Assembly: GCA_963802255.1 (NCBI GenBank)
Contig: CAWDHY010000001.1
Span: 363,842 to 427,841, forward strand
Direction: 5' to 3'
Source: Candidatus Magasanikiibacteriota bacterium
Lineage (GTDB): Bacteria; Patescibacteriota; Patescibacteriia; Magasanikbacterales; GWA2-37-8
DNA: 64,000 bases
Positions 11,894 to 29,151 of the stretch are shown here, in pieces (position 1 is the stretch's first letter; the number at the start of each line of letters is the position of its first letter). The position numbers and the translations under genes were made by a program. Below the pieces are notes generated by a model. The model was given only the letters and a program-made list of their open reading frames with translations, was not told the DNA's origin and made no database searches.

Positions 11894-13648
11894 ATGGCAG
11901 AGGATAAGAAGACGAAAGCTCTCACTTCACGCGGGAAAACCGTGGATGGAGAGTCGTCCGGAACGAAGCCGACGGGCACTTTGATCAGTGAAGCCGAAGC
12001 TCAGGCGGTAAGGGGCAATACGATGCCGCCGCCGAAGCCCGATCCCAGCCGGTTCCCCAGCACAATCGCGGAGATATCCGGTGAGGAGTCGGCCGATGAA
12101 GCGGACGTTGTCCGTGGAACGGAAGAACTGGAAGTCGGAGAGGGCGTTCGGCCGGTACGGCCGGACGAGACCATGCGAACGCGAGTTTCGGGAATGATCA
12201 AGGACGCACTCGGCAAGCCCGAGGAGCCCGAGCCCGTTCCCGCCAAGATCATCAACACGTCAGCCGCTAGTTCGGATACGTGGTCCAGCGTCGGCATCGA
12301 GGGCGATGAAGCGGCGGAAGAGAATCCGCTGGCGGATTTGCCCGCGCCAGAAATGGCCGAAGGCGAAGTGGTTCAGGATGAAAGTCCTGAAGTCGCTGAG
12401 CCGGAAGTGGTTTCGGCTGATGCGAGCGTGGATGCGGAGGAGGCCTCCCCGGAGGAAACGAACGGGACGCCTCACCAGGCGAGTCCTTACGTGGAGCTTC
12501 GGATGATCGAGGGCGGAATCGTTCTCGAGGGTCCTGCGGTGGAAGTGGGTGATGAGCTCATCATCGGCCGTGACAAGGGTTGCGGCATGGTGATCGAGTC
12601 GCGCTACATCTCCCGGCATCATGCGGTGATCACCAAGTCGAAGGATGGCGACAAGTTCGTCATCATCGATCTCGGGTCCAAGCAGAAAACGTTCGTCAAC
12701 GACTTCGTCGTGGAACGCGACAAGGAATTCGAAATCGCGCACGGAGATACCATCCGGTTTGGCCGGGCGGACTGCGGCGCCGAGCTCGTCTTTCACGATC
12801 CGATGGTTCAGAAAGCAGATGTGGTGGCGGATGCCACCGTCATGAACCCCGACACCGACAGCCAGCCGGCCGATTCCGTTTCTGCGGATGAGCCGGAGAA
12901 GGAGGAAGATGTGACGAAAGCGGAACAGCACGCTGAGACGCTCAGCATCGACACGGGCCCGCTCCAGGGTGCCGTCGACAGCGGAGGAAAGGATGGCGAG
13001 AAGCCCGACGCAGACGCGACGGTCGTACCGCCCGACTTGCCTCCGCCGCCCGCCGACATGAAGAAGGCAGATACCAAGGGCGACAAGAAGAAGCCCGCCG
13101 GCGCGAAGAGCGCCTCCGGTGGCGGAACGCCGCCGCGTCTCCCGCCCTCGACTCAGAACTACAGCAAGGTGCTCTCGTCGGTTTTCATCGTTCTCATGCT
13201 CATGGTGGTCTTCGTCTTCGGCGCTATCCTCGTCGTTCGCGAGGTGATACCGGGCATTACCGGTTTCTTCGCAGAAACGGCAACGGTCGTCCCCATAGCG
13301 CCGCCCGCACAGGTGGCGAAGACGTCGGCAACCCAGCTGGCCAGCACTCCGGTGCAGGGTGAGCTGGCCGACCAGGTGGTACTCGCGGTTCAGGTGCCGG
13401 AGTTTGCGGACCTCAGAAAGATCCAGCTACCCGATGCATATGTTCCGCCTGCCAAATCGCCGATCAAGGATTTCGCGAGAGGGGTAGTCCTCCCCAAGTC
13501 ATTTGAGGACTGCTTCCCCAAGAACGCCACACTCGAAGCGGCGGAAGTGGCCTGGTGTTGCTCCTTCTTGCATCCGAATGCGGGTGACCTGGATGAACTG
13601 ATCAGGATGTCCGACTGCATGATCAAGCTCGAGCAGATGCAATATTAA
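11894..13648 (+). CDS. FHA-domain membrane protein (N-terminal acidic/Pro-rich region, FHA domain, one TM, C-terminal Cys-containing extracytoplasmic tail)
   Basis: LIIGRDKGCGMVIESRYISRHHAVI...DLGSKQKTFVNDFVV...HGDTIRFG is a canonical FHA core (GR...SRxH...N.T.vN). TM segment VLSSVFIVLMLMVVFVFGAILVV. GC-rich codon usage (first gene of the island). Confidence 0.65.
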   Translation: MAEDKKTKALTSRGKTVDGESSGTKPTGTLISEAEAQAVRGNTMPPPKPDPSRFPSTIAEISGEESADEADVVRGTEELEVGEGVRPVRPDETMRTRVSGMIKDALGKPEEPEPVPAKIINTSAASSDTWSSVGIEGDEAAEENPLADLPAPEMAEGEVVQDESPEVAEPEVVSADASVDAEEASPEETNGTPHQASPYVELRMIEGGIVLEGPAVEVGDELIIGRDKGCGMVIESRYISRHHAVITKSKDGDKFVIIDLGSKQKTFVNDFVVERDKEFEIAHGDTIRFGRADCGAELVFHDPMVQKADVVADATVMNPDTDSQPADSVSADEPEKEEDVTKAEQHAETLSIDTGPLQGAVDSGGKDGEKPDADATVVPPDLPPPPADMKKADTKGDKKKPAGAKSASGGGTPPRLPPSTQNYSKVLSSVFIVLMLMVVFVFGAILVVREVIPGITGFFAETATVVPIAPPAQVAKTSATQLASTPVQGELADQVVLAVQVPEFADLRKIQLPDAYVPPAKSPIKDFARGVVLPKSFEDCFPKNATLEAAEVAWCCSFLHPNAGDLDELIRMSDCMIKLEQMQY

Positions 13649-13666
13649 TTTTTGCCTACCATTTCA

Positions 13667-13692
13667 GGGAAGCAACAGTCCTGTTGCTTCCC
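13667..13692 (+). other. Perfect 11-12-bp stem-loop GGGAAGCAACAG/CTGTTGCTTCCC directly after the FHA gene (no U-tract)
   Basis: Inverted repeat read directly; followed downstream by a second long inverted repeat ACGGGTGTT...AACACCCGT plus T8 ending at about 13854. Confidence 0.4.
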
Positions 13693-13914
13693 ATTCCCAT
13701 CGGATGCCTGTGTTAACGGACATCCCGAGGAATAATATTTTTTGCACTTTATCGCAATCACCTGGTTTTCACGGGTGTTGCAATAAAGTGCAACAAAACG
13801 CACCTTACAATATAACAAGCAAGGCAATTAGAAAAACACCCGTTTTTTTTCGAAGCAGAGGGTCCGTAACAAAACGCGCAGAGCGCGCGATAACGGAGAA
13901 AGGGAGAAATCAAG

Positions 13915-15384
13915 ATGAAGAGATTCTTCGTCAGTTTGTTCACGGCAGCGGCCATCATGTACTCGGTCGGCGTTTCCGCGCAGTCCGCGGTGGATGGTGA
14001 TTACGAGGTCCAAGATTGGATGACGGTGGATATCACCGAGTCCGATCCGGGCGCTCAGCAGAGCGCCACCAATCAGGCCGTATTCTTCGGTCTGCAGGAG
14101 GTGGCCGTTCATCTGAAGAGGCTCGAGAACAAGTGCACGTCACCCAATTCGGACGGCTGCACTGACGCGATCATCGCTGCCGAGAAAAAGGCCAGCGAGA
14201 TCGTGAAGACCCAGGGTCTCTCACCCAAACAGAAGCGCGCGGTCCGACGGATCGTCGATGAAGCCATCACGGCCGCGAACGTGGGCGACACCGAGGGTGT
14301 CAAGAAAATCCGCGAACAGCTCGCGGACCACGAACGGCGAATTGGCGATCTCGAGGGTGACGTTACGAAGCTCAAGAGCAAAGTGACAGCGATCGAGAGC
14401 GGTGGCACAGTGGTCATCTCTTCGGAAAGTGGTTCGTCGGTAGCGGATTCCATGGATACGCGGCGCAAGGCCGTAGTGGCGCAGTCCACGGCAGACGAGG
14501 CGTTGCGGGTGGCCAAAGAGGCCAAGACCGCAGCCGATGAAGCCAAGGCTGCCTCTGCCGGTGAAAATTCCGGTATTTCCAAGGAAGACTTCCAGATCGT
14601 CCGCGATGCCGCGGCTGACGCGCAAGCGCGAGCCGATCTGGCACAGCGTGCTGCCGAGGAAGCCAAGGAAGCGGCCGATAAGGCTCTCGCCGGTTCCGAC
14701 AACGCGAACGAGTCCGGTGATGCCGAGGCGCTCGCGGATGCCAACAGGCGTTCGGACGAGGCCCTGACACAGGCCAAGGAAGCTCTCGCCAAGGCGGAAG
14801 AGGCGCGCGAGAATTCCGATGGTCTTGCCGATCAGATCGCGGCGCTCAAGACCGACATCGGCGCTTTGGAAGCCAAGCTCGATAAGAAGCAGGATGCCAA
14901 CGAGGTGGAGGCCGGTCTCGGCTATTTCACCACCGGCAAGATTTTCGCCCCAACCGTAGGTGTTACCTACACCGTGCGGCGCGGAGATATCCGGCTGGCG
15001 ATTGGCGCTGACTTCGGCTACCACTTCTTCTACGACAACATCGAGTACGAGCCCGAGATCAGAATCCTGTTCAACAGCTACTTCCGGCTCGGATACCAGT
15101 TCGTGGATTGGTTCTCCGCAGGCATCGGCGCATTTTCCTACAGCGCCGGCCAGCCCTATTCCGACACTTTCGGTTTCGGAGCAGAGTTGAGCGCCCGGTT
15201 CAACTGGATGCTCACGGACGCTCTCGGAATGGCCGTGGAGCTCTGGGGAGGACCCACCTACGAGTGGCAGAAGGTCACTAATCCGGAACCGCCGGATGTC
15301 GGTGCCAATGAGATCTACAAAAGCACTGACCAAAAAGGCGGTGCTTCCGGCGCCGGAGGCCTCCGGTTGACCCTCACGTTCTAA
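13915..15384 (+). CDS. Secreted protein: signal peptide, Ala-rich coiled-coil stalk, C-terminal beta-rich domain ending in an OMP-like beta-signal (…GLRLTLTF)
   Basis: MKRFFVSLFTAAAIMYSVGVSAQS signal peptide. Heptad-like AKEAKTAADEAKAAS...AEEAKEAADKALAG region. The C-terminal 160 aa has alternating aromatic/hydrophobic beta-strand patterns and a terminal Phe. RBS GGAGAAAGGGAG upstream. Confidence 0.6.
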   Translation: MKRFFVSLFTAAAIMYSVGVSAQSAVDGDYEVQDWMTVDITESDPGAQQSATNQAVFFGLQEVAVHLKRLENKCTSPNSDGCTDAIIAAEKKASEIVKTQGLSPKQKRAVRRIVDEAITAANVGDTEGVKKIREQLADHERRIGDLEGDVTKLKSKVTAIESGGTVVISSESGSSVADSMDTRRKAVVAQSTADEALRVAKEAKTAADEAKAASAGENSGISKEDFQIVRDAAADAQARADLAQRAAEEAKEAADKALAGSDNANESGDAEALADANRRSDEALTQAKEALAKAEEARENSDGLADQIAALKTDIGALEAKLDKKQDANEVEAGLGYFTTGKIFAPTVGVTYTVRRGDIRLAIGADFGYHFFYDNIEYEPEIRILFNSYFRLGYQFVDWFSAGIGAFSYSAGQPYSDTFGFGAELSARFNWMLTDALGMAVELWGGPTYEWQKVTNPEPPDVGANEIYKSTDQKGGASGAGGLRLTLTF

Positions 15385-15410
15385 GTTCTTTCCTGCCTTT
15401 GTTTGTTCTT

Positions 15411-15438
15411 GGGGCGAATGCGTTCTGCATATCGCCCC
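15411..15438 (+). terminator. Hairpin GGGGCGAatgcgttctgcaTATCGCCCC after gene 13915-15384
   Basis: 8-bp GC stem 27 nt after the stop; only a weak T-run follows. Confidence 0.35.
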
Positions 15439-15628
15439 CTCTATTTTGCCAATTATTATTTGTTGGCAGAATAGGGGATACACTTTGGCCCTTTCGCATT
15501 TTTATGCGATAATACCAAAGAAAGAAATATAATCTGTTCATTACAACTGACTGATAGTAAATAAGACAGCCGATGATGGCTGTTTCAACACAGAAATTTC
15601 GGGCAAAGACCCGAGAAAGGAACATAAA

Positions 15629-17272
<1,644 letters not shown>

Positions 17273-17310
17273 TCTTATCAGTTAGTTAAGTTCTTTCCGT
17301 TTGTTCTTTT

Positions 17311-17341
17311 GCGGCCGCGTGTTCTCACGCGGCCGCTTTTT
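17311..17341 (+). terminator. Rho-independent terminator GCGGCCGCGtgttctcaCGCGGCCGC + TTTTT
   Basis: 9-bp GC stem then U-tract, 38 nt after the stop of gene 15629-17272. Confidence 0.6.
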
Positions 17342-17365
17342 ATTTTATTTTAAAAATTTTTTTAA

Positions 17366-17397
17366 TAAAAAAACACCGAGCCAGATTGGCTCGGTGT
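17366..17397 (-). terminator. Rho-independent terminator for the minus-strand gene (CACCGAGCC-aatct-GGCTCGGTG + U7 on the minus strand)
   Basis: Plus strand shows aaaaaaaCACCGAGCCagattGGCTCGGTG, 22 nt downstream of the 17420 stop. Confidence 0.55.
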
Positions 17398-17419
17398 GGG
17401 ATGTGCGGAAGAGCAAGGG

Positions 17420-18079
17420 TTAAAGAGCGGAGAGAGCGGCGGGGGGAAGTGGACGGTAGAGGCTGTACATCCGGAGGAGGCATTCGTTCCGATACGGAAC
17501 AGGCAGTGCCTCGCAGCAGGGTTGCACGTTCTCTCGGCACAACACCGGACCGCCGGAAAAGCAGATGTCGGAAGGGTTCGGCGTGATGGCCGGAGGAGCT
17601 GTGAGCGTCGGCGGCTCCTTGTCCGTCACGTCTTCTCCGCGGTTGGCCACGGAGTAGGCGATCCAGCCGGCCAGCAGCAGGAGGATGATGATGACGATGA
17701 TCCATCCGATGGGGATGTCCCTCACCGGGCGGTGCGGCGGCGTCTGCTCGGCCTGCTCACGGAGTCGGGCGTTCAGCGCCGCTTCCTCGGCGACACGTCG
17801 CGCTTCGGCCTCTTCGCGGAGGCGAGCGTTCTGAGCCGATTCTTCTGCTGCGCGTCGCGTGCGTTCGACTTCCTCGGCCGCCAAGCGCGCTTTCTCGCGC
17901 TCGACGCTTTCGTCCACCATCTTGATGCCTTTGTCCACGACCTTCATCGCGGCCGCGAACATCTTCGCGCCGTAGTCATCCACGCTTTTCGCCGTCTTGG
18001 CACCCGGCTTCTGCTGATCGCCAGTCTTGCCATGGCCTCCGCCTTGCTGAGAGCCGTTCTGATTATTGTCGTTTGCCAT
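17420..18079 (-). CDS. Membrane protein: Gly/Gln-rich N-terminus, AEEA/ARLRE-repeat coiled coil, one TM, short Cys-rich C-terminal tail
   Basis: Start MANDNNQ at 18079 with GGAG 7 nt upstream; TM IGWIIVIIILLLLAGWIAY; C-terminal ...DICFSGGPVLCRENVQPCCEALPVPYRNECLL. The annotated ORF-track start at 18163 is probably too long. Confidence 0.55.
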   Translation of the reverse strand: MANDNNQNGSQQGGGHGKTGDQQKPGAKTAKSVDDYGAKMFAAAMKVVDKGIKMVDESVEREKARLAAEEVERTRRAAEESAQNARLREEAEARRVAEEAALNARLREQAEQTPPHRPVRDIPIGWIIVIIILLLLAGWIAYSVANRGEDVTDKEPPTLTAPPAITPNPSDICFSGGPVLCRENVQPCCEALPVPYRNECLLRMYSLYRPLPPAALSAL

Positions 18080-18213
18080 TTGCAAATCTCCTTTTTTGGA
18101 ATGGCTTCTCGCCGGTTTTTTAGTTTGGTTGTCAATGGTGCTGCCAAAAAATGACAGTATCAATAAATAATCAAATTAAATATTTAAAATATATTGATCT
18201 AAATTAACTAATC

Positions 18214-18242
18214 ATCTTAGCACATTTATTGGAGTATGTCAA
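18214..18242 (-). promoter_or_regulatory. Candidate divergent promoter for gene 17420-18079 (minus strand TTGACA - 17 - TAAGAT, with aaatgtgc extended -10 context)
   Basis: Minus-strand reading gcccaTTGACAtactccaataaatgtgcTAAGAT; shares the aaatgtgc-TAnAnT context with the plus-strand promoters. Confidence 0.3.
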
Positions 18243-18271
18243 TGGGCTAATTGGCCATTTTGGTAGGGGGC

Positions 18272-18300
18272 TTGACAAAATCATACAAATGTGGTATACT
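18272..18300 (+). promoter_or_regulatory. Sigma70 promoter TTGACA - 17 nt - TATACT, extended -10 (TGg)
   Basis: cTTGACAaaatcatacaaatgtggTATACT; perfect -35, 17-nt spacer, 5/6 -10. Confidence 0.55.
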
Positions 18301-18306
18301 ATCCCT

Positions 18307-18430
18307 TGTAAGTGAAAAATATAAGTTTTTGGCCTGCGTTTGAGAGAGGCGCCTGTCAAAAACAACCTAAATATGCCTAATTATATCAAGGCATAATACC
18401 CGAAAACTCTCTCAAAAGGAGAGGTTTTTT
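18307..18430 (+). ncRNA. Candidate short transcript or leader from promoter 18272, ending at an intrinsic terminator (CUCUC-aaaag-GAGAG + U6) just before the second promoter
   Basis: tGAGAGAGg (18341-18349) can pair with CTCTCTCA (18407-18414); the same CUCUC can instead pair with GGAGAGG (18418-18424) followed by TTTTTT (18425-18430). Internal ATGCCT/AGGCAT hairpin. No ORF. Confidence 0.3.
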
Positions 18431-18476
18431 CTTTAAAATAAGGCAAAATTGTTCAATAGTTGAGTCTTTAATGGTG

Positions 18477-18505
18477 TTGACAAAATTGCTTAAATGTGCT
18501 ATACT
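18477..18505 (+). promoter_or_regulatory. Sigma70 promoter TTGACA - 17 nt - TATACT, extended -10 (TGc)
   Basis: gTTGACAaaattgcttaaatgtgcTATACT, about 170 nt upstream of the start at 18676. Confidence 0.55.
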
Positions 18506-18675
18506 TATACGTTAAGATAAATTTTCCTTTACTTTGCGCCTATCTTTCAAGAGCGGGTGCAGACTGAGGGAAATTTCCTTAGAAAAGCTCTTTTCATATA
18601 GAAAGAAGTTGAAAGAAACAGCGGCCGTGAGTCGGCCATAACAAGCCGCACTGCGGCGCAATATTGGAGGATCCG

Positions 18676-19714
18676 ATGAAAAACGTCATCGTGACCGTGT
18701 TCGTAGTGCACTGCGCCATGTTCGTTTCGGCGAACGCCCTCGCGCAGTACAATGGCGCTAGCCCCGCCGGCCCGCTCATCGTGGACAACTTGTCCGCCAT
18801 GCAGGCGGCCGGCCGGTGCGTCTCGCAGATCCAGACGGTCTGCAACGGCTACTGGAACGCCCCCGGGTGTTCGCAGGCCGTGATCGACTGCGACAAGGTA
18901 CGCTCCGGTGCCAAGAAGGCGGCCACCGGCCTGACCAAGAAGCAGGTCATCGCCATCGTTGAAGACGCAATCAAGGGTCTCGCCAGCAAGGCGGATCTCG
19001 ATGCTCTCGCGAAGCGTGTGGCCGCGCTCGAGGATGGTCTGGCCAAGGAAGCTGCGGCACGCGCCGCTGCCGATGAGGCACTCCAGGCGGATATCGACGA
19101 GCATAAGGCCGCGGAGTGTCACGACGGCGAACGGCGCTGCACGGACGAAAATACGCCGGCGGTTTGTACGGACGGTAAGTACGTCGACCAGCCAGACTGC
19201 GGCGAGGACACCTTCTGCAACGACGGGCTTTGTATGGAAGAAGCCTTGGGACGAGGACATCAACGCCCTGAAGGATGAAGTCATGTTCGAGATCGGCGCT
19301 ACGTTCTTCGGCGCTCCTCACCTTCAGGCGATCGGTGCCGCGGCTGGTTTGCAGCTGCGGATTGCCGACAACATCGCGGTGGTGGGAGACCTCGGGCTCG
19401 GCTACGCCTTCGACAAGGATGTGGCCGTGATCGCGAGTGGTGGTGTTGTCTTCTACGTGACCGAGAAGTTCGGTCTCGGACCCGTCGCACTCTTCGGCAA
19501 GGAGAGTTTTGATGACGAAGGTGACGTCGAAGTTGGTGGAGGTGTGGAGCTTCGGTTCCGTACCGGCACCGGTTTCTTCGTCTCTGGAACCATCGGCCTC
19601 GGCGCTGAGGGAGTGCTTCAGAAGATCGGCACGCGTCCTGACGGCGAGAAGCTGACCGACCGCGAGTGGGGCCTGGCCGTCATGGGCGGGCTCATGATCG
19701 GCGGCGAGTTCTAA
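18676..19714 (+). CDS. Paralog of 13915-15384 (signal peptide, Cys/coiled-coil region, C-terminal beta-rich domain ending ...GGLMIGGEF), interrupted by a +1 frameshift near 19233-19247
   Basis: GGAGG RBS + ATG at 18676, signal peptide MKNVIVTVFVVHCAMFVSANALAQ. Frame 1 runs to 19278 (…FCNDGLCMEEALGRGHQRPEG*). The overlapping +1 frame (ORF 18959-19714) continues …WDEDINALKDEVMFEIGATFFG…, homologous to the C-terminal domain of 13915-15384. Either a pseudogene or a sequence error. Confidence 0.5.
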
Positions 19715-19948
19715 CCAACCAGTTCTTTCCTTTCTATATAAGGTCGGCGCGATTCTGCGCCGGCCTCCCAACTCTTGCGTACAAAATTTGTTCGCAGAAG
19801 TTGGGACCAAAGTTCTCATATAAAAATTGGGAACGACGGAGCACCCATTAAAATAGCTCTTTGAAATATTATTAGGAACTTAAAAGTTTAGAAACGCAAC
19901 GAACGAAACACATCCCGACACGTCGGGATTGACAAAAAGGAGATACCG

Positions 19949-21415
19949 ATGAAGACCATCGCTATGATTCTCTGGGTTGCTCTGGTCGTGATCGCGGCGA
20001 GCGCGTGTGGTGTGGAGGCGGGCGACGGTGACTTCACCGCGACCGCGGACACCGACAGCGACACCGACTCCGACACGGATTCGGACAGCGATTCGGACAC
20101 CGACAGCGACACCGACTCCGACACGGATTCGGACAGCGATTCGGACACCGACAGCGACACCGACTCCGACACGGACGAGTGTACGGATGGCGAGGTCGGG
20201 TGCACCGACGACGACTCCTTCCACATCTGCGTGGATGGTCAGTGGTCGGCGGAACTCGATTGCGCCGGCGACCTCGTCTGCGAAGACGGTGAGTGTGTCG
20301 ATCCGGGTTCGGACTGCGAGGACGGCGAGAGTGAGTGCACCGACGACGATTCGTACCACGTGTGCGTCGGCGGCAGCTGGTCGGCAACGATTGACTGTGC
20401 CGATGGCTACGAGTGTGCGGAAGGTCAGTGCGAGCTCGTTCAGATCTGCGATCCCGGTGACGAGCGCTGCTACGGCGGAAACGCCCAGCAGTGCAACAGC
20501 GCCGGAACGGCTTGGGCCACCATCGATTTCTGCGCCTCCGATGAGGAGTGCGTGGTGGTGGGTGGCGAGGCTGAGTGCGTCGCGGACACGATTTGCACCC
20601 CCTACGACGAGCGCTGCTACGGCGGAAACGCCCAGCAGTGCAACAGCGCCGGAACGGCTTGGGCTGTCATCGACTACTGCGCCTCCGATGAGGACTGCGT
20701 GGTGGTGAGCGGTGAGGCCGAGTGCGTGTCCGATTCTATCTGCACCCCCTACGACGAGCGCTGCTACGGCGGAAACGCCCAGCAGTGCAACAGCGCCGGA
20801 ACAGCTTGGGTCACCATCGACACCTGCGGCTCCGACGAGGAGTGCGAGATGGTGGGTGACGAAGCCGAGTGTCACGAGTGCGGCGCATTCAACAGCTATG
20901 ACTGTCCCAGCGGGGAAACCTGCGAAGAGGGACAGTGCGTAGGCGGCGATGACGACGAGTGCATCGTCGGCGACCCGGCACATCAGTGCGACGAAGGGTA
21001 CGCCTGTGTGGATGGCGAGTGTGTGGAGGCCGACTGCACGGGCGCGACTGATTGTCCGACAGGGCAGGTCTGCCACATCCTCGGAACGCGCTTCGAGACC
21101 GTGGGTAGCGAGATCTACGGGTACAAGATCGACGGCGTTTGCGCTTCGGCCCCGTCCGGTACCGCCGAGTGTTGGGACAGGGACTGGGACGGCAGCGCCC
21201 TGACGATCGGCGGAGTGTGTGAGCTGTTCTACAGCGAGTACTCCCCGGACGTCTGGTACTCCTACCAGAGCACCCCGCACTGCCAGGGTTCGTCCTGGCA
21301 CAACCCGATCCCAGAATGCTGTATCCGGGACAGTATGGACAAGTGCGTCAAGCATACGGTTTCCACCGGCTTGGGCACGATCATGTCCAGCTCCTGGATC
21401 GCCCGCGTTATCTAG
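19949..21415 (+). CDS. Lipoprotein, (S/T)D-repeat Cys-rich family member 2 (488 aa)
   Basis: Signal/lipobox VVIAASACG; SD/TD tract; three near-identical about 40-aa Cys modules (CxPYDERCYGGNAQQCNSAGTAWAxIDxCASDEECVVVxGEAECV); C-terminal ECWDRDWDGSALTIGGVC...IPECC domain shared with family. Confidence 0.65.
   Translation: MKTIAMILWVALVVIAASACGVEAGDGDFTATADTDSDTDSDTDSDSDSDTDSDTDSDTDSDSDSDTDSDTDSDTDECTDGEVGCTDDDSFHICVDGQWSAELDCAGDLVCEDGECVDPGSDCEDGESECTDDDSYHVCVGGSWSATIDCADGYECAEGQCELVQICDPGDERCYGGNAQQCNSAGTAWATIDFCASDEECVVVGGEAECVADTICTPYDERCYGGNAQQCNSAGTAWAVIDYCASDEDCVVVSGEAECVSDSICTPYDERCYGGNAQQCNSAGTAWVTIDTCGSDEECEMVGDEAECHECGAFNSYDCPSGETCEEGQCVGGDDDECIVGDPAHQCDEGYACVDGECVEADCTGATDCPTGQVCHILGTRFETVGSEIYGYKIDGVCASAPSGTAECWDRDWDGSALTIGGVCELFYSEYSPDVWYSYQSTPHCQGSSWHNPIPECCIRDSMDKCVKHTVSTGLGTIMSSSWIARVI
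20048..20170 (+). repeat. 48-nt tandem repeat about 2.5 copies (SD/TD dipeptide tract)
   Basis: gacaccgacagcgacaccgactccgacacggattcggacagcgattcg repeated. Confidence 0.75.
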
Positions 21416-21646
21416 TAGTTCCTACCTTGTTCTTTCAGGTCGACGGCGCCTTTAAAGCCGTCAATTCATATGAGATGATCTGTCTCTCGGATAATCTCAG
21501 ATGAATCAAAGAATCCGGGCCTTGTGCCGGGATTTTTTGTTTTTGATGATTACATGGTTTTGCTGTCACAAACACACCTCTTTATGCGTAATATCTAATG
21601 TAATATCAGTGGTTTTTGACATTTTTGTGGATAATCATATAAACAC

Positions 21647-21675
21647 TTGACAACAGAGCCAAAAAGTGTTAATAT
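21647..21675 (+). promoter_or_regulatory. Sigma70 promoter TTGACA - 17 nt - TAATAT, extended -10 (TGt)
   Basis: cTTGACAacagagccaaaaagtgtTAATAT about 300 nt upstream of gene 21973. Confidence 0.5.
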
Positions 21676-21716
21676 TTAGTGTTACAATTTATGTGTATTT
21701 CAAGCTGATTAGCAAT

Positions 21717-21775
21717 TGAGAGAGGTGGCTAATTTTGGCGAAATACAGCGCAAAACCTCTCTCGGCGAGGTTTTT
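21717..21775 (+). promoter_or_regulatory. Conserved leader element: GAGAGAGG ... CCUCUCUC hairpin followed by a short GC stem and U-run (attenuator-like)
   Basis: tGAGAGAGG (21717-21725) is perfectly complementary to CCTCTCTC (21756-21763), followed by ggcgaggTTTTTgttaTTTTT; same GA/CU motif pair as in leader 18341-18424. Confidence 0.35.
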
Positions 21776-21972
21776 GTTATTTTTATTGGCGTCAATATTT
21801 TCATGCTAAATTTTTTGGCTTGAAACAGGGACGCTTCCCCTGGCCGTACTCGCTTATGCGTAATTCGGCTTGAAGCTAAATATAATAGTACCTTGAAAAT
21901 TGAAGGGAACAAAAATAAACAATCGCGATTGGAATCGCGACAAACAGAATCGAAGGAAAAGAGGAGGAAAAG

Positions 21973-24723
21973 ATGAGAAAGTATTTGGTCTGGTTTGCGA
22001 TCGTCCTGTCTGCGACCGGATGTATCTCGCCGAACATGGGGGGAAACGGAGACGAGTACAAGTTCGGCAGTGACACGGACACGGACACGGACACCGACAC
22101 GGACACCGACACGGACACCGACACGGACACCGACACGGACACCGACACGGACACCGACACGGACACCGACACGGACACCGACACGGACACCGACACGGAC
22201 ACCGACACGGACACCGACACGGACACCGACACGGACACCGACACGGACACCGACACGGACACCGACACGGACACCGACACGGACACCGACACGGACACCG
22301 ACACGGACACCGACACGGACACCGACACTGGTGACGGTGGCCCGGATGGTGGAGACACTGATTCGGGCGTTGACTGCATCAGCGGGCCGTGTTGCAACGC
22401 GGGCGGATTCTTCCAACCCGAAGGATACCCTTGCGCTTCGTTCGCCGAGTATCAATGCAATGGGACTCTTTGCGGAGCCGACGCTCAGTCGCGCTCAGTG
22501 ACGCAGTTCTGCTCGGGCGAAAGTTTCGAGTGCGACGGCGATACGTTCGAGACGGTCTGGGCGACAATCCAGAACTGTTCAGACTCCGACGTCTGCAACA
22601 CCGATATGGTTTCTTATGCCGAGTGCGCCGAGTGCGACCTTGGTTGTGAAGATGTCGGTGGAATCGGCGACTGTCTTTTGGAGTGCGATCCTGCCGACGA
22701 ATGCTGCGGATCCGATGGTCTCTTCGAGATCGTGGGCACCCTTTGTGGTGATTCATCCGACAGCGTGTGCGACGGAGCGGATACTTGCGACGGCGCCGGT
22801 GTGTGCCTCGAGAATATCGAGCCAGACACGACTGAATGCCACGCATCTGCCGGAGATTGCGACATCACGGAATTCTGTGATGGCGCTGGCGCTTGTCCTA
22901 CCGATACGTTCGAAGCGGCGCTTATTGAGTGCCGTCCTTCCGCTGGTGTTTGCGATATCGCTGAGTACTGTACCGGCGATTCGCCGGCTTGTCCTTCCGA
23001 TGAGGTGGAGTTCACGAGTTTGCCCTGCGACAGCTGGGCAGAATATCAGTGCTTCGCCGGAACCGGAGATGGATGCGGAGCTGACGCTCAAGCGCGTTGG
23101 GCTACGCAGTACTGTGGCGGTGGGGTTTCGTGCGATGGCAGTATCTTCAGTACCGCCTGGATGACTATCCAGAATTGCGGTGATGATGATATTTGTTTCA
23201 CCGATACCTTCTCCTACGCCGAGTGTGAGGTCTGTGATGTCGGCTGTACGGATGGTGAATGTGATGATCTGCCTGACGGCGGCGCTGACACCGACACCGA
23301 CACCGACACGGATACGGATACGGACACGGACACGGATACCGACACGGATACCGACACGGATACGGATACCGACACGGATACCGACACGGATACCGATACC
23401 GACACCGATACGGATACCGATACGGACACGGACACGGATACGGATACCGATACCGACACGGATACCGACACGGATACCGATACGGACACGGATACCGACA
23501 CGGATACCGATACGGATACCGATACGGATACCGATACGGATACCGATACCGATACCGATACGGATACCGATACTGGGGACTGCGTCCCTGGCGATATGTG
23601 CTGTGATCTCGCCGGCAATTTCGAGCCGGCCGGTACGTCCTGCGGTGACACCACTGCTTCGACCTGCGACAACCCCGACACCTGTGATGGTGGCGGCAAC
23701 TGCGAGTCGAACTACGAGCCGACTACCACTGTTTGCCGCCCGGCGGCAGACATCTGCGACGTGGATGATTTCTGCAATGGTGCAGGACTCTGCGATCCGG
23801 ACGAGGTGGAGCTCGAGTTCGTGGAGTGCCGAGGTTCTCTCGGTGCTTGCGACGCGGTGGATTACTGCGATGGTATCACCACATCGTGTGATGACGGACT
23901 GCTCTTCGGCGATGTCTGCCACGCTTCGGCCGGCGACTGTGATCCCGAGGAGACCTGCGACGGTGCGTTGCCGGATTGTCCGGTCGACACGCTCGAGCCA
24001 GACACCACGGTATGCCGTGCGGAAACCGGTGACTGCGACAACGCCGAGACCTGTACCGGTAGCTCTGCTACCTGTCCGGCCGACACGTTCAAGTCGCCGT
24101 CTACCATCTGCGATACCTCCTACGAGTTCAGATGCAATGGCTCGCTCTGCGGGTCCGATGCTCAGCGCAGACTGGTTCGCCAGTACTGTGACGGCACCGG
24201 TGCCGCCTGTGACGGGTCCATCTACTACAACAGCTGGTTGACGATCGAAAACTGCGACGCTTCCTCTGTTTGCATCGCGACTCCCATTTCTGCTACCTGC
24301 GACGTTTGCGGTTACGAGTGTCAGAACATTCCTGACGGTACCTGCGTCGGCGAAGAGGACGAACCCTGTGCTGAGCCTCCTTTCGAGGAGTGCGATGACG
24401 GGCTCGTCTGCACCGAAGGTATCTGCGGTACCGAACCCGATGGCGGGACGGACGGCGGAATCGACGGCGGCGCTGACACCGACACCGGATACCGATACGG
24501 ACACCGACACGGATACGGATACGGATACCGACACGGATACGGACACCGACACGGACACCGACACGGACACCGATACCGACACGGACACGGACACCGACAC
24601 GGATACCGACACGGATACGGATACCGATACGGATACCGATACGGACACCGATACGGATACCGATACGGATACCGATACGGATACCGATACGGATACCGAT
24701 ACTGGGGACTGCGTCCCTGGTGA
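21973..24723 (+). CDS. Lipoprotein family member 3, segment A of a 4.2-kb gene (real frame ends at a +1 frameshift about 24487; the ORF tail to 24723 is an out-of-frame read of the repeat as GYRYGHRHG...)
   Basis: Lipobox LSATGC followed by [16 protein letters not shown] (same post-Cys motif as 15629). About 42 consecutive TD dipeptides, Cys-rich modules (CRxxxGxCDxxExCxGxxxxCPxD), second TD tract, first copy of the 909-bp block. Confidence 0.6.
22093..22326 (+). repeat. Perfect 12-nt tandem repeat (gacaccgacacg) x about 19.5, encoding (TD)n
   Basis: Exact head-to-tail copies over about 234 nt, read directly from the sequence. Confidence 0.9.
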
Positions 24724-25609
24724 TACGTGCTGTGATCTCGCCGGCAATTTCGAGCCGGCCGGTACGTCCTGCGGTGACACCACTGTTTCGACCTGCGACA
24801 ACCCCGACACCTGTGATGGTGGCGGCAACTGCGAGTCGAACTACGAGCCGACTACCACTGTTTGCCGCCCGGCGGCAGACATCTGCGACGTGGATGATTT
24901 CTGCAATGGTGCAGGACTCTGCGATCCGGACGAGGTGGAGCTCGAGTTCGTGGAGTGCCGAGGTTCTCTCGGTGCTTGCGACGCGGTGGATTACTGCGAT
25001 GGTATCACCACATCGTGTGATGACGGACTGCTCTTCGGCGATGTCTGCCACGCTTCGGCCGGCGACTGTGATCCCGAGGAGACCTGCGACGGTGCGTTGC
25101 CGGATTGTCCGGTCGACACGCTCGAGCCAGACACCACGGTATGCCGTGCGGAAACCGGTGACTGCGACAACGCCGAGACCTGTACCGGTAGCTCTGCTAC
25201 CTGTCCGGCCGACACGTTCAAGTCGCCGTCTACCATCTGCGATACCTCCTACGAGTTCAGATGCAATGGCTCGCTCTGCGGGTCCGATGCTCAGCGCAGA
25301 CTGGTTCGCCAGTACTGTGACGGCACCGGTGCCGCCTGTGACGGGTCCATCTACTACAACAGCTGGTTGACGATCGAAAACTGCGACGCTTCCTCTGTTT
25401 GCATCGCGACTCCCATTTCTGCTACCTGCGACGTTTGCGGTTACGAGTGTCAGAACATTCCTGACGGTACCTGCGTCGGCGAAGAGGACGAACCCTGTGC
25501 TGAGCCTCCTTTCGAGGAGTGCGATGACGGGCTCGTCTGCACCGAAGGTATCTGCGGTACCGAACCCGATGGCGGGACGGACGGCGGAATCGACGGCGGC
25601 GCTGACACC
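23572..25609 (+). repeat. Tandem direct duplication: two 909-bp near-identical copies (23572-24480 and 24701-25609) separated by a 220-bp TD-repeat tract (period 1129 bp)
   Basis: Copies align base for base from actggggactgcgtccctgg... to ...cgacggcggcgctgacacc. Only a few substitutions are visible (ggcgatatg vs ggtgatacg; actgcttcg vs actgtttcg). The antisense ORFs 23862-24107 and 24991-25236 are identical. Confidence 0.85.
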
Positions 25610-25765
25610 GATACGGATACCGATACGGATACGCGACACGGACACGGATACCGACACGGATACGGACACCGACACGGATACCGACACGGATACCGACACG
25701 GATACGGATACCGATACGGATACCGACACGGATACGGATACCGAACTCTGGGAGTGTGTGTCTGA
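24368..25765 (+). CDS. Segment B of the same gene (real coding about 24487-25634 in this frame; second copy of the Cys-rich block). The ORF-track N-terminus MLSLLS... is an out-of-frame artefact.
   Basis: The frame carries PDTDTDTD... then [25 protein letters not shown]... identical to segment A residues, then [11 protein letters not shown] followed by an RHGHGY out-of-frame repeat read after a second +1 shift near 25634. Confidence 0.5.
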   Translation: MLSLLSRSAMTGSSAPKVSAVPNPMAGRTAESTAALTPTPDTDTDTDTDTDTDTDTDTDTDTDTDTDTDTDTDTDTDTDTDTDTDTDTDTDTDTDTDTDTDTDTDTDTDTDTGDCVPGDTCCDLAGNFEPAGTSCGDTTVSTCDNPDTCDGGGNCESNYEPTTTVCRPAADICDVDDFCNGAGLCDPDEVELEFVECRGSLGACDAVDYCDGITTSCDDGLLFGDVCHASAGDCDPEETCDGALPDCPVDTLEPDTTVCRAETGDCDNAETCTGSSATCPADTFKSPSTICDTSYEFRCNGSLCGSDAQRRLVRQYCDGTGAACDGSIYYNSWLTIENCDASSVCIATPISATCDVCGYECQNIPDGTCVGEEDEPCAEPPFEECDDGLVCTEGICGTEPDGGTDGGIDGGADTDTDTDTDTRHGHGYRHGYGHRHGYRHGYRHGYGYRYGYRHGYGYRTLGVCV

Positions 25766-26213
25766 CACTGACTGCACTGATCCGGCTTTGCCCATCTGCT
25801 CACAGTTCCACATCTGCGTGGAGTGTGAGTACGGCGAAGACTGTTTCGTCGATGAAGGGTGTGGCAAGGAATCGTTCACCTGCGAACCCATTCCGAAGCC
25901 CGCAGTGGGTGAGTATCTGTTCTGTTGGGACCTCGATCCCGACGGCGACCCCCTCACTATCAACAGTACTTGTGATGACTTCGACGTCGTTGATGGCTGT
26001 GACTACTGGGGGCCGGTGCCCTGGCAGTACGAGGAAGGCGTAGGTATGCCGATTTGTGGCAGCTGCGATTGGGTCGTCGATCACTGTGAGGCGTGTGCCG
26101 AACAGGAACCCATTCCGGAGTGTTGCCTCAGCAATCAGTGGAACTTCTTTGAGCTGGATCCTGTGGAGCGGATTTGTCTGACGCAGGGACTGCTCATTGA
26201 ATTCATTCCATAG
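25497..26213 (+). CDS. Segment C of the same gene (real coding about 25634-26213: TD tract plus conserved C-terminal domain FCWDLDPDGDPLTINSTC...IPECC)
   Basis: Frame carries (TD)n then ELWECVSDTDCTD... and the family C-terminal domain; stop at 26211-26213. Confidence 0.55.
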   Translation: MLSLLSRSAMTGSSAPKVSAVPNPMAGRTAESTAALTPIRIPIRIRDTDTDTDTDTDTDTDTDTDTDTDTDTDTDTDTDTDTELWECVSDTDCTDPALPICSQFHICVECEYGEDCFVDEGCGKESFTCEPIPKPAVGEYLFCWDLDPDGDPLTINSTCDDFDVVDGCDYWGPVPWQYEEGVGMPICGSCDWVVDHCEACAEQEPIPECCLSNQWNFFELDPVERICLTQGLLIEFIP

Positions 26214-26416: not shown

Positions 26417-27946
26417 TTGTTCAATTTAATGATATTATTTATGCGTATGAAATCACTTTTACCCTTAGATACAGATGCAAAACAGCATTTGTTTTGGAGC
26501 ATACTAGCCGTTTCATCCGTGGCCGTTTTTTGCACTGCCACTATTTGTTTTGGCTTATCGCTCGCATTGTATTTCTTTTCGTTTTTATTAATATTTCTCG
26601 CCACCATTATGCGGCCGGAGGCCGGTTTGTATGTTGTTGTTATCGGCACGATGTGGTTTGAAAGATACTTTACTCTCTTACCCATTACCGCAAATGGCGT
26701 GGATTACAAATTATATCCTTTAGATTTAGTTATATTATTTATAGTTTTAAGTGTCGGAGCGCGTCTTTTGGAAGGACGATTAAAGTGGAAGTTTAAAAAA
26801 ATTGATTTTTTTCTTATCGGATTCGGCATTGCCTGCACTTATGGAATGATTATCGCCATATCCCGTCATCTAAATTTAGCTTTAGCATTTGGAACATACA
26901 AAAATTATTTTATTTACGGGATTTTGTATTTTCTTGTTGCAGTTATCCTGCGGACAAAGGATGATTGGCTGAAATTTATGAAGGCGTTAACCGTCGGAGG
27001 AGCCGGGCTTTTTTTCTTTTTATTTTATGGTTTAATTGTTGGCAAAGGATTATGGAGCGAGTATACGCCGCTATCGACGGCCGGCGAACGTTTAATTGCC
27101 GGTACGCATATATTTTATTTTGTGATTTTTTTCTTTTGGCTGATATCATGGATTATCTGGCCGATTGCCAAAGAACACGCGAGAAGAAAAACATATAACA
27201 TTTTTATTTTTATCGCCTTGTCTCTTATCGGCGTTGCACTAGTCGTATCGCTGGTAAGACATTTGTGGATAGCGGTTGCGGCCGTCCTGTTATTTTGGGT
27301 GCTTTTTTTGCCGACAATTCGGAGGCGCTTGCGTTATTTATATATTGTTGTCGCCGTATCGGCTGTATCAGCTATATTAATGTTTGCCTACATAAATGTC
27401 GGAAAAATATTTTTTAAAGCGACCGGCGAATCATTTTCTAATACATCGCAGGTGCTTTCTGAGCGGACCGATGTGGAGTATGCAACCAGTGGCCAGGACG
27501 CCAGTTTTCGTTGGCGTTTATCAACCTGGAAGGTTGGCCTTTCCGCCTGGATGACTCATCCGTTTTTTGGCGTAGGCCTTGGATATGAAATTTATGGTTT
27601 GGACAATAACTGGCCTTTTCACATTGCTATGCGCGAGATCCACAACGATTATTTAGCCATTTTGTATCAACTTGGAGCAATCGGTTTTTTGGTTATTGTG
27701 GAGTGGATGATATATCTTTGGTATCAGTTTTTTAAAAACCGGTCTTCAATGCTTTCTTCGGATGATCCGGAAGAATCCAGATTATTTTTTACCTGGTGGA
27801 GCGTTGCACTAACACTAATGGCAGGTTTTACCATTTCCATTTATTGGGATGTAAATTTTTTCAACATTTGGTGGTGGATTGCGTTGGCGGCTGTAAGATT
27901 TTTATGGTTTAAATTTTCCGAATATGAGAATCCTGGAAATAAATAA
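26417..27946 (+). CDS. O-antigen ligase / Wzy_C-family polytopic membrane protein (WaaL/PglL-like)
   Basis: About 12 TM segments; periplasmic loop HIAMREIHNDYLAILYQLG typical of the Wzy_C/O-antigen ligase signature (H..NDYL); host-like AT-rich codons. Confidence 0.6.
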   Translation: MFNLMILFMRMKSLLPLDTDAKQHLFWSILAVSSVAVFCTATICFGLSLALYFFSFLLIFLATIMRPEAGLYVVVIGTMWFERYFTLLPITANGVDYKLYPLDLVILFIVLSVGARLLEGRLKWKFKKIDFFLIGFGIACTYGMIIAISRHLNLALAFGTYKNYFIYGILYFLVAVILRTKDDWLKFMKALTVGGAGLFFFLFYGLIVGKGLWSEYTPLSTAGERLIAGTHIFYFVIFFFWLISWIIWPIAKEHARRKTYNIFIFIALSLIGVALVVSLVRHLWIAVAAVLLFWVLFLPTIRRRLRYLYIVVAVSAVSAILMFAYINVGKIFFKATGESFSNTSQVLSERTDVEYATSGQDASFRWRLSTWKVGLSAWMTHPFFGVGLGYEIYGLDNNWPFHIAMREIHNDYLAILYQLGAIGFLVIVEWMIYLWYQFFKNRSSMLSSDDPEESRLFFTWWSVALTLMAGFTISIYWDVNFFNIWWWIALAAVRFLWFKFSEYENPGNK

Positions 27947-29144: not shown

Positions 29145-29151
29145 TTTTTTT

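What the first reader, a model, noticed from the sequence alone, without database searches (positions are those of the whole stretch)
22093..22326. Perfect micro/minisatellite arrays encoding the dipeptide tracts (12-nt x about 19.5, 48-nt x 5, 48-nt x 2.5): built-in length hypervariability
The TD tracts are not merely biased codons but exact head-to-tail DNA repeats. The unit gacaccgacacg runs 22093-22326, the 48-mer unit runs 15736-15975, and another 48-mer runs 20048-20170. Each paralog uses a different unit, so the arrays expanded independently after gene duplication. All units are multiples of 3, so slippage or unequal crossing-over changes tract length without breaking the frame. Perfect copies imply very recent or ongoing expansion and contraction. 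The more diverged tracts in segment 23287-23571 and elsewhere show older arrays.
Basis: seen in the sequence. Interest (0 to 1): 0.6.

Follow-up and report, generated by a model that had tools for sequence, protein, structure and literature searches.

The report
Repeat-encoded acidic stalks in surface lipoproteins
Three neighbouring genes of an uncultured, small-genome (CPR) bacterium carry exact head-to-tail DNA repeats that encode Thr/Ser-Asp spacer tracts just after the lipid anchor of predicted surface proteins; this is a real example of a well-known way for bacteria to change surface-protein length, in a new host and with a new dipeptide.

Summary
There are perfect arrays at 22084-22328 (12 nt x 20.4), 15733-15993 (48 nt x 5.4) and 20046-20175 (48 nt x 2.7). 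None of 2000 synonymous-codon shuffles of the same peptides reaches these runs, so they are DNA-level expansions and not codon bias.

The arrays lie in three paralogous predicted lipoproteins of a Candidatus Magasanikiibacteriota (CPR) genome. Each D-x tract starts 13-16 residues after the lipobox Cys and precedes Cys-rich, disintegrin-like modules.

Orthologous tracts in two other genomes differ in length and in repeat unit. One ortholog has its own perfect 12-nt x 9.9 array with a different unit, which points to turnover or concerted evolution. A 1.1-kb module duplication with breakpoints inside TD tracts has 3 differences in about 900 nt, while the tracts beside it differ far more.

The claim that slippage never breaks the frame is only partly right. 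Two +1 indels sit inside TD tracts of the same gene (24487, 25634), and a third sits in the Lac Pavin ortholog. Variability within a population could not be tested.

The closest analogues are staphylococcal SD-repeat stalks and Mycoplasma size-variable lipoproteins. This is a new member of a known kind.

The more surprising side finding is that the 14-kb gene cluster keeps GC3 near 0.7 in a genome with GC3 near 0.4, across species.

The parts
22072..22329 (+). TD tract 1 of the third lipoprotein gene. It has 43 GAYACN units, written bbb(ab)x20e where a=GACACC, b=GACACG and e=GACACT. The perfect 12-nt array spans 22084-22328 (20.4 copies).
15733..15993 (+). Perfect 48-nt x 5.44 array encoding (DTDSDTDTDGDTDTDS)n. 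It is the membrane-proximal tract of the first lipoprotein gene.
16302..16450 (+). Second D-x tract of the first gene. The unit is 42 nt, with 2.8 copies at 93% matches and a perfect run at 16302-16401.
16559..16807 (+). Third D-x tract of the first gene. The unit is 48 nt, with 3.5 copies at 95% matches (16613-16782).
20046..20175 (+). Perfect 48-nt x 2.71 array encoding (DTDSDTDSDTDSDSDS)n. It is the membrane-proximal tract of the second lipoprotein gene.
23287..23574 (+). TD tract 2 of the third gene (96 aa). Its synonymous codons are scrambled and no long perfect run remains.
24475..24703 (+). TD tract 3 of the third gene. An extra G at 24487 shifts the reading frame from 0 to 1.
25604..25742 (+). 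TD tract 4 of the third gene. An extra C at 25634 shifts the reading frame from 1 to 2.
15629..17272 (+). Paralog 1, a predicted lipoprotein of 547 aa. D-x tracts make up 42% of its residues, it has Cys-rich modules, and it ends in the conserved C-terminal domain.
19949..21415 (+). Paralog 2, a predicted lipoprotein of 488 aa. It has one D-x tract, three tandem 49-aa Cys-rich repeats (147 nt x 2.8 at 20459-20871) and the conserved C-terminal domain.
21973..26213 (+). Paralog 3, a modular lipoprotein of about 1413 aa if the two frameshifts are removed. As assembled it reads as ORFs 21973-24723, 24368-25765 and 25497-26213. It carries disintegrin-like modules (Pfam PF00200 above the curated cut-off).
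23575..25603 (+). Tandem duplication of the disintegrin module: B at 23575-24474 and B' at 24704-25603. There are 3 differences in about 900 nt, and the breakpoints lie inside TD tracts.
11894..26213 (.). GC-rich gene cluster that contains all the arrays. Its GC3 is 0.67-0.81, against 0.38-0.41 in the flanks.

Best explanation
The arrays are in-frame coding micro/minisatellites. They were produced recently by replication slippage or unequal recombination. They encode acidic Thr/Ser-Asp low-complexity stalks in a small family of predicted surface lipoproteins of a CPR bacterium (Candidatus Magasanikiibacteriota). Each protein starts with a signal peptide and lipobox Cys, then a 13-16 residue conserved spacer, then a D-x tract of about 40-90 residues, and then Cys-rich modules (partly disintegrin-like). 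Longer proteins have further D-x tracts between modules. The inferred function is that the first tract acts as a flexible, negatively charged spacer that sets how far the binding modules stand from the membrane. The inferred dynamics are that whole-unit gain or loss changes this length without changing the frame, and that recombination between tracts duplicates or shuffles whole modules. Shown here: the exact repeats, their excess over codon bias, their position in the proteins, the turnover of length and unit between species, and a module duplication with breakpoints inside tracts. Inferred: lipidation, surface exposure, the stalk function, and the rate of change. Not shown: length variation within a population.
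For: The perfect arrays exceed all 2000 synonymous-codon shuffles. A PROSITE-type lipobox is present in all 10 family N-termini examined, and where the script located the first D-x tract (7 of the 10) it begins 11-18 residues after the Cys. Pfam Disintegrin scores above the curated cut-off in the modules. The cluster is syntenic in the Lac Pavin Magasanikiibacteriota MAG and in GCA_964407865.1, and the orthologous tracts there differ in length and unit. The tract orthologous to the 12-nt array is itself a perfect 12 nt x 9.9 array with another unit (GACACGGATACC), although flanking proteins are only 67-83% identical, which indicates homogenisation or turnover. Modules B and B' differ at 3 of about 900 nt, whereas the 1283-nt alignment that includes the flanking tracts has 31 mismatches and 6 gaps, nearly all of them in the tracts. 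The window has one more module than the Lac Pavin ortholog. NCBIfam aligns the tracts only with the SD-repeat stalk part of the ClfA/ClfB/SdrC/SdrD models. That stalk varies from 9 to 52 repeats among isolates and acts as a flexible stalk (PMC6533592).
Against: No reads and no second spanning assembly of the same species were available, so copy-number polymorphism is unproven. The stalk of paralog 2 is rather stable across three genomes (57/67/56 aa), so length may be constrained. Three out-of-frame indels inside tracts show that change is not always frame-safe. The copy number in the window depends on an assembly whose method is unknown to me. Lipidation and surface exposure rest on sequence motifs only.
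Confidence: 0.7

Rival explanations
1. Assembly or consensus artefact: the perfection, the copy number and the frameshifts of the arrays come from the assembler or polisher and not from the organism.
For: Every short-read assembly fails at these arrays. One Logan contig of the same organism ends about 29 nt into the 48-nt array, and a second appears to end at the same point. The two Lac Pavin contigs end inside a TD array and share a 72-nt overlap. GCA_964407865.1 has N runs in a TD array and in the module repeats. Both window frameshifts look as if both wobble alleles of a Thr codon were kept (ACC/ACG read as ACCG and ACGC), which a consensus of heterogeneous reads could produce.
Against: An independent MAG has a perfect 12-nt array at the orthologous site. 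Other tracts of the same gene remain heterogeneous, so polishing did not homogenise everything. The housekeeping genes examined across the ~50 kb of flank gave Pfam matches running to both ends of the profile, and the protein of 13915-15384 is identical in two independent read sets. By inference, collapse of a period-12 cycle in a de Bruijn graph preserves the frame.
Confidence: 0.12
2. Contingency (phase-variation) locus: out-of-frame indels inside the TD tracts reversibly truncate the modular adhesin after different modules, and that is the selected function of the repeats.
For: Three out-of-frame indels lie inside TD tracts in two genomes, and the downstream reading frames are still intact and conserved. 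The tracts are open in all three forward frames, so a shift produces a short alternative tail and then a stop.
Against: The repeat units are 6, 12 and 48 nt, so slippage of units keeps the frame. The indels are single bases or 2-4 nt at non-homopolymer sites, for which no high reversal rate is known. They may be sequencing errors or plain decay, and another gene of the cluster (18664-19714) is frameshifted outside any repeat. No promoter homopolymer tracts are present.
Confidence: 0.1
3. Selection at the protein level alone: a (TD)n peptide is required, for example for calcium binding or O-glycosylation, and the DNA periodicity is a by-product of codon preference.
For: Only GAC/GAT and ACC/ACG (rarely ACT) are used in the tracts. 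Tracts 2-4 of the third gene look like shuffled codons. The peptide type is conserved at orthologous positions in three genomes.
Against: None of 2000 codon shuffles reproduces the perfect runs. Strict ACG/ACC alternation over 20 units and identical 48-mers cannot come from codon bias.
Confidence: 0.05

Closest known systems
Serine-aspartate (SD) repeat R-domains of staphylococcal Clf/Sdr/Fbl adhesins
   Same: Both are acidic dipeptide repeats (X-Asp) encoded by short in-frame DNA repeats in a surface adhesin. [quoted passage not shown] NCBIfam aligns the TD tracts with exactly this part of the ClfA/ClfB/SdrC/SdrD models.
   Different: The dipeptide here is mainly Thr-Asp. The units are 12 or 48 nt, not 18. 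The stalk lies at the N-terminus just after a lipobox, and again between modules, rather than before a C-terminal LPXTG anchor (none present). There is no A-domain, and scores are far below the family cut-offs (134.7 versus 999 bits). The host is a CPR bacterium.
Size-variable surface lipoproteins of Mycoplasma (Vsa, Vlp)
   Same: Both are lipoproteins of small-genome, host-dependent bacteria that are encoded in clusters of paralogs. In Mycoplasma, in-frame tandem repeats change the length of the protein, and length modulates shielding and adherence (PMC6080569).
   Different: Vsa repeats are 10-19 aa units that form most of the mature protein at its C-terminus, and they are coupled to site-specific inversion or promoter switches. 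Here the repeats are dipeptide tracts between folded Cys-rich modules, and no switch element was found. No sequence similarity between the two was found, and none was specifically searched for.
Simple-sequence contingency loci (phase-variable genes of Neisseria and Haemophilus)
   Same: Both have repeats inside coding sequence that mutate by slippage. Out-of-frame changes are also seen here, in three tracts.
   Different: Contingency loci use units of 1-5 or 7 nt, so that unit slippage switches the frame. Here all units are multiples of 3, and the frame-breaking events are not unit slippage.
Bacterial disintegrin-like, cysteine-rich repeat proteins (Pfam PF00200 hits in Binatia, Deltaproteobacteria and Phycisphaerae MAGs)
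   Same: The modules between the tracts match PF00200 above the cut-off. Their best homologs are such proteins, at 27-62% identity over part of the query.
   Different: None of the 120 listed disintegrin homologs carries a D-x tract of 5 or more dipeptides. Many of the hits are partial.

Membership tests
In-frame coding tandem repeats (VNTR) of bacterial surface proteins | Head-to-tail DNA copies with high identity, beyond what the peptide and codon usage explain | tested here: met
   TRF reports 99-100% matches. None of 2000 synonymous shuffles reaches the observed runs.
In-frame coding tandem repeats (VNTR) of bacterial surface proteins | Unit length is a multiple of 3 and the array lies inside an ORF | tested here: met
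   Units are 12, 42 and 48 nt, and all are read as D-x in the frame of long ORFs.
In-frame coding tandem repeats (VNTR) of bacterial surface proteins | Copy number differs between strains or within a population | not testable with these tools
   No reads were available. Short-read contigs of the same organism stop at the array. Only differences between species could be shown.
Clf/Sdr MSCRAMM adhesins | Whole-protein match to the family model (A-domain plus SD region) | tested here: not met
   NCBIfam gives ClfB 134.7 bits against a cut-off of 999 and SdrD 98.5 against 2500. Only the repeat part of each profile aligns.
Clf/Sdr MSCRAMM adhesins | C-terminal LPXTG sorting signal | tested here: not met
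   No [LIV]Px[TSA][GNA] motif occurs in any of the three proteins.
Clf/Sdr MSCRAMM adhesins | Ser-Asp dipeptide repeats encoded by 18-bp units | tested here: not met
   The tracts are mainly Thr-Asp with some Ser, Gly or Ala in place of Thr, and the units are 12, 42 or 48 nt.
Bacterial lipoproteins | Signal peptide with a lipobox ([LIVMFWSTAG]2-[LIVMFYSTAGCQ]-[AGS]-C) and K/R near the N-terminus | tested here: met
   A regex modelled on the lipobox rule matches all 10 family N-termini (3 in the window, 6 orthologs and P0015). Lipidation itself was not tested.
Mycoplasma Vsa/Vlp-type variable lipoproteins | Switch element (invertible promoter or homopolymer tract) controlling expression | tested here: not met
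   No homopolymer of 6 or more bases lies within 160 nt upstream of the three genes. No recombinase gene is present in the cluster.
Simple-sequence contingency loci | Repeat unit not divisible by 3 (or located in the promoter), so that unit slippage switches expression | tested here: not met
   All units are multiples of 3. The observed frameshifts are 1-nt insertions, or 2-4 nt events, and not unit changes.
Disintegrin domain (Pfam PF00200) | Score above the Pfam gathering threshold | tested here: met
   Scores are 54.6 and 52.4 bits against a cut-off of 35.1, with three stretches each, in ORFs 21973-24723 and 24368-25765.

The most novel reading that the evidence does not exclude
The TD tracts may be more than length-variable spacers. 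They could be the recombination and mutation joints of a cassette system for surface adhesins in CPR episymbionts. Under this reading, recombination between tracts duplicates, deletes or swaps whole Cys-rich modules, as in the 1.1-kb duplication. Small out-of-frame indels in the tracts truncate the protein after chosen modules. The whole cluster is kept at GC3 near 0.7 in a genome with GC3 near 0.4, over a divergence that I infer to be beyond synonymous saturation, by a process linked to this recombination, such as GC-biased gene conversion, or by selection.
Probability: 0.12. Interest if true: 0.7.

Novelty: new member of a known kind. Interest (0 to 1): 0.42.

Why it matters
CPR bacteria are thought to live attached to host cells, yet very little is known about the surface proteins that mediate this. 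Here a conserved cluster of predicted lipoproteins combines adhesin-type (disintegrin-like) modules with repeat-encoded stalks that change quickly between species. That makes them candidate attachment proteins and gives a natural marker for strain-level dynamics in long-read metagenomes.

There is also a practical point. These arrays break every short-read assembly examined. Such genes are therefore systematically missing or truncated in MAG catalogues. None of the three repeat proteins turned up in the two searches of the 5.8-billion-cluster collection that should have hit them. Exact look-ups of the first two also failed.

The persistence of a GC-rich gene cluster inside an AT-rich genome across species has no explanation here and would merit its own study.

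Tried and rejected
1. Exact-sequence look-ups of the repeat proteins and several neighbours (17420-18163, 17420-18079, 19949-21415, 18676-19278, 15629-17272, 27924-29144) found nothing on record. Only 13915-15384 was found, on two Logan contigs whose DNA could not be fetched. Copy number in other samples therefore could not be compared.

2. A metagenome scan with the conserved N-terminus (alignment A3) found no confirmed relative; most of the 600 raw pattern matches probably came from the TD pattern. The DNA pattern for GDEYKFGS gave one hit, L004, which is a chance match in an unrelated gene.

3. A search with module B found no near-identical protein (best 62% over 26% of the query). The frameshifts therefore could not be checked in other samples.

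4. For the C-terminal domain, the AlphaFold2 model from 9 sequences had mean pLDDT 68.6. Foldseek against the PDB gave no match with E <= 0.001, so the fold is unknown.

5. I suspected a conserved +1 shift in gene 18664-19714 because the L006 ortholog was called as two genes. Translation shows the L006 gene is one intact ORF, so the shift is specific to the window.

6. No att-like direct repeats were found within either 350-600 nt cluster-border stretch searched, and no tRNA gene lies at the borders. Rfam finds only tmRNA and two tRNAs in the window.

7. Literature searches for Thr-Asp repeats, CPR disintegrins and Magasanikbacteria surface proteins found nothing relevant.

8. Codon bias as the sole cause of the periodicity was rejected by permutation.
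Full report
OBSERVATION. Tandem Repeats Finder gives 22072-22328 (period 12, 21.4 copies, 99% matches), 15733-15993 (period 48, 5.4 copies, 100%) and 20046-20175 (period 48, 2.7 copies, 100%). Exact self-match runs are 22084-22328 (20.4 copies), 15733-15993 (5.44) and 20046-20175 (2.71). If each GAYACN hexamer is written as a letter, the first tract of the third gene reads bbb(ab)x20e (a=GACACC, b=GACACG, e=GACACT). The other tracts of that gene are irregular mixtures of four hexamers.

MORE THAN CHANCE OR CODON BIAS. I kept each peptide and redrew synonymous codons, either from pooled tract usage or by shuffling the tract's own codons. None of 2000 shuffles reached the observed perfect run for the three arrays. 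The same was true for the two further arrays of the first gene (16304-16450, 16559-16807). The tracts at 23287-23574, 24488-24703 and 25635-25742 are close to the shuffled expectation. The perfect arrays are therefore DNA-level expansions, and the other tracts are either old arrays or are kept only at the peptide level.

THE GENES. All tracts are read as (Asp-Thr/Ser/Gly/Ala)n in three + strand genes: 15629-17272, 19949-21415 and 21973-26213.
- Each gene begins with a signal peptide that fits the PROSITE-type lipobox rule. So do six orthologs and one distant family member.
- In the three window genes the first D-x tract begins 13-16 residues after the lipobox Cys. Where the script located it (7 of the 10 N-termini), the range is 11-18 residues.
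- Cys-rich modules follow. Those of the third gene match Pfam Disintegrin above the curated cut-off (54.6 and 52.4 bits against 35.1).
- All three proteins end in a shared domain of about 125 aa (CWDxDxDG ... PECC). This domain is rare: 8 proteins with E <= 1e-10 among 1.84 billion representatives.
- One of those proteins, P0015, is a 163-aa lipoprotein made only of a lipobox, a TD/AD tract and this domain.
- The fold of the domain is unresolved (mean pLDDT 68.6, no PDB match).
- D-x tracts make up 42%, 9% and 22% of the three proteins, and there is no LPXTG motif.

THE ORGANISM AND THE CLUSTER. The flanks encode ordinary bacterial functions: BipA, IF-3, tmRNA, Wzy-type ligase, GT4, MurC, MraY, MurB, PBP2 and transketolase.
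- The conserved C-terminal domain located the same cluster in a MAG named Candidatus Magasanikiibacteriota (LacPavin_0920_SED2_MAG_44_15; L002 and L003).
- An exact-protein look-up located it in GCA_964407865.1 (L006) and on a small JGI contig (L001).
- Gene order is the same in these genomes.
- Flank proteins are 67-83% identical between the window and the Lac Pavin MAG. Cluster proteins are 42-76% identical.

TURNOVER BETWEEN SPECIES. Orthologous tracts sit at the same positions but differ in length and unit.
- Lac Pavin has 108- and 114-nt higher-order units where the window has 48-mers and irregular hexamer tracts.
- GCA_964407865.1 has only short, imperfect arrays.
- The distance from the lipobox Cys to the next Cys is 117/97/61 aa for paralog 3 and 57/67/56 aa for paralog 2 across three genomes. 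For paralog 1 it is 101 aa in the window and at least 70 aa in Lac Pavin, where a lone Cys interrupts a tract that continues.
- The Lac Pavin tract orthologous to the 12-nt array is itself a perfect 12 nt x 9.9 array. Its unit is GACACGGATACC instead of GACACGGACACC.
- Perfect identity within each array, set against this much divergence of the surrounding proteins, is the signature of continuing homogenisation or replacement of the arrays.

AN INTERNAL CLOCK. The window carries a tandem duplication of the disintegrin module. The stretches 23574-24487 and 24703-25616 differ at 5 positions, 3 of them in the roughly 900 nt outside the tracts. The wider 1283-nt alignment, which includes the flanking tracts, has 31 mismatches and 6 gaps, nearly all in the tracts. 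The three tracts involved are 288, 229 and 139 nt long.

The breakpoints lie inside TD tracts, and the Lac Pavin ortholog has one module fewer. The tracts therefore also act as substrates for unequal recombination that changes module number. There is one caveat. Because the breakpoints are inside the tracts, part of the tract alignment may not be homologous by descent from the duplication.

FRAME-BREAKING EVENTS. The third gene does not stay in one frame. An extra G at 24487 (ACC-G-GAT) and an extra C at 25634 (ACG-C-GAC) shift it from frame 0 to 1 and then to 2. This gives three overlapping ORFs whose downstream parts are intact. The Lac Pavin ortholog shifts from frame 0 to 2 directly after its perfect array (GATACACAGATACGG).

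A further gene of the cluster (18664-19714) is shifted near 19245, outside any repeat, while both orthologs are single ORFs. The flanking genes examined gave Pfam matches running to both ends of the profile.

I cannot decide whether the window's shifts are real. Their form, in which both wobble alleles appear to be kept, would fit a consensus error in a heterogeneous repeat. The Lac Pavin shift is harder to explain as a graph artefact, because collapse of a period-12 cycle keeps the phase (inference). Either way, the statement that these repeats cannot break the frame is too strong.

ASSEMBLY CAVEAT. One short-read Logan contig that carries the exact 13915-15384 protein ends about 29 nt into the 48-nt array, and a second appears to end at the same point. 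The two Lac Pavin contigs end inside one TD array and share an exact 72-nt overlap. GCA_964407865.1 has N runs in a TD array and in the module repeats.

None of the window's three repeat proteins turned up in the two homolog searches that should have hit them. Exact look-ups of the first two also failed. Their neighbours are on record, on a 628-kb contig. The existence and perfection of the arrays are secure, but their exact copy number rests on one assembly.

HOW IT MOST LIKELY WORKS.
- Shown: exact in-frame arrays; a conserved position just after the lipid-anchor motif and between modules; fast turnover of length and unit; recombination between tracts.
- Inferred: the first tract is an extended, strongly acidic spacer that carries the binding modules away from the membrane and through the wall. 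Whole-unit slippage tunes this reach.
- Speculative: Thr-rich tracts could also be O-glycosylated. Wzy_C-type and GT4 genes lie directly downstream in all three genomes, but the whole region is syntenic, so this adjacency proves nothing.

COMPARISON WITH KNOWN SYSTEMS. NCBIfam aligns the tracts only with the SD-repeat part of the ClfA/ClfB/SdrC/SdrD models, far below the cut-offs. The staphylococcal R-domain is encoded by 18-bp repeats, varies from 9 to 52 copies among isolates, acts as a flexible stalk, and affects binding when short (PMC6533592). Mycoplasma Vsa lipoproteins change length through tandem repeats, with effects on shielding and adherence (PMC6080569).

The present tracts work like these systems but belong to neither family. 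There is no A-domain or LPXTG, the dipeptide and unit differ, the position in the protein differs, and no switch element is present. They also fail the definition of simple-sequence contingency loci, because the units are multiples of 3.

SIDE FINDING. The cluster (11894-26213) has GC3 of 0.67-0.81, against 0.38-0.41 in the flanks, and its spacers are AT-rich. The same contrast holds in the Lac Pavin MAG, in GCA_964407865.1, on the JGI contig, and for the lone family member P0015 beside type IV secretion-like genes.

At the protein divergence seen (flank proteins 55-83% identical across these genomes), I expect synonymous sites to be saturated. A recent transfer that has not yet ameliorated therefore does not explain the pattern. 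The best module homologs are in GC-rich lineages (Binatia, Deltaproteobacteria, Phycisphaerae). What maintains the composition is unknown.

VERDICT. It is overstated on frame safety, and it is untested on variability within a population. As a phenomenon it is a new member of a familiar class, repeat-encoded stalks of surface proteins. Interest is moderate, and is raised somewhat by the CPR host, the module shuffling and the persistent GC anomaly.

Noticed in passing
window 11894-26213; also L003 2100-11014 and 13708-15194, L002 1-2250, L006 1-9623, L001 1-399, L005 8001-8492: A 14-kb gene cluster has GC3 of 0.67-0.81 in a genome with GC3 of 0.38-0.41, and the spacers inside it are AT-rich. The same contrast is kept in three to four other genomes whose flank proteins are only 55-83% identical, so I infer the composition is maintained and is not a fresh transfer.
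   Followed up: partly
window 24487 and 25634; L003 13975-13982: Single-base insertions inside TD tracts split the third lipoprotein gene into three ORFs. The Lac Pavin ortholog has its own frameshift at the end of its first TD tract. Whether these are real or consensus errors is undecided.
   Followed up: partly
window 23575-24474 and 24704-25603: A 1.1-kb tandem duplication of a disintegrin-like module has 3 differences in about 900 nt. Its breakpoints lie inside TD tracts, and the Lac Pavin ortholog has one copy fewer.
   Followed up: yes
window 18664-19714 (shift near 19245): A gene for a signal peptide, coiled coil and beta-rich C-terminus is split by a +1 shift and carries a Cys-rich insertion found only in the window. 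The orthologs L003 8272-9279 and L006 3797-4804 are single ORFs.
   Followed up: yes
window 16880-17272, 21000-21415, 25743-26213: A conserved C-terminal domain of about 125 aa (CWDxDxDG ... PECC) is shared by the three lipoproteins. It is very rare in public data (8 hits with E <= 1e-10 among 1.84 billion representatives) and has no recognisable fold match.
   Followed up: partly
window 13915-15384 and 19262-19714: Two cluster proteins end in a beta-rich domain that terminates in Phe (..LRLTLTF, ..MIGGEF). This resembles the C-terminal signature of outer-membrane beta-barrels, which is odd for a CPR bacterium thought to lack an outer membrane.
   Followed up: no
window about 15762; L003 end and L002 start; L006 about 1036-1140 and about 7700-7800: Short-read assemblies stop at the arrays. 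One Logan contig ends about 29 nt into the 48-nt array and a second appears to end at the same point. The two Lac Pavin contig ends overlap by 72 nt inside a TD array. N runs occur in GCA_964407865.1.
   Followed up: yes
window 20459-20871: A 147-nt x 2.8 tandem repeat (87% matches) encodes three copies of a 49-aa Cys-rich unit in the second lipoprotein. This is a domain-level repeat in the same gene family.
   Followed up: no
L003 7611-7737: A perfect 27-nt x 4.7 array encodes PPVV-type repeats on the minus strand, in the ortholog of window gene 17420-18079. TRF found no tandem array in the window gene.
   Followed up: no
window 26417-31200: Wzy_C-type ligase, GT4 glycosyltransferase and GHL15 genes lie directly downstream of the cluster in all three genomes. 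A link to glycosylation of the Thr-rich tracts is conceivable but untested.
   Followed up: no
L003 11200-13257: The Lac Pavin cluster holds an extra 685-aa gene of host-like composition (GC3 0.40) between the second and third lipoprotein genes. It is absent from the window.
   Followed up: no
window 11894-13648: The first gene of the cluster encodes an FHA-domain protein with a predicted membrane segment and a Cys-rich C-terminus. It has weak similarity to TagH/GltG-type FHA proteins.
   Followed up: no
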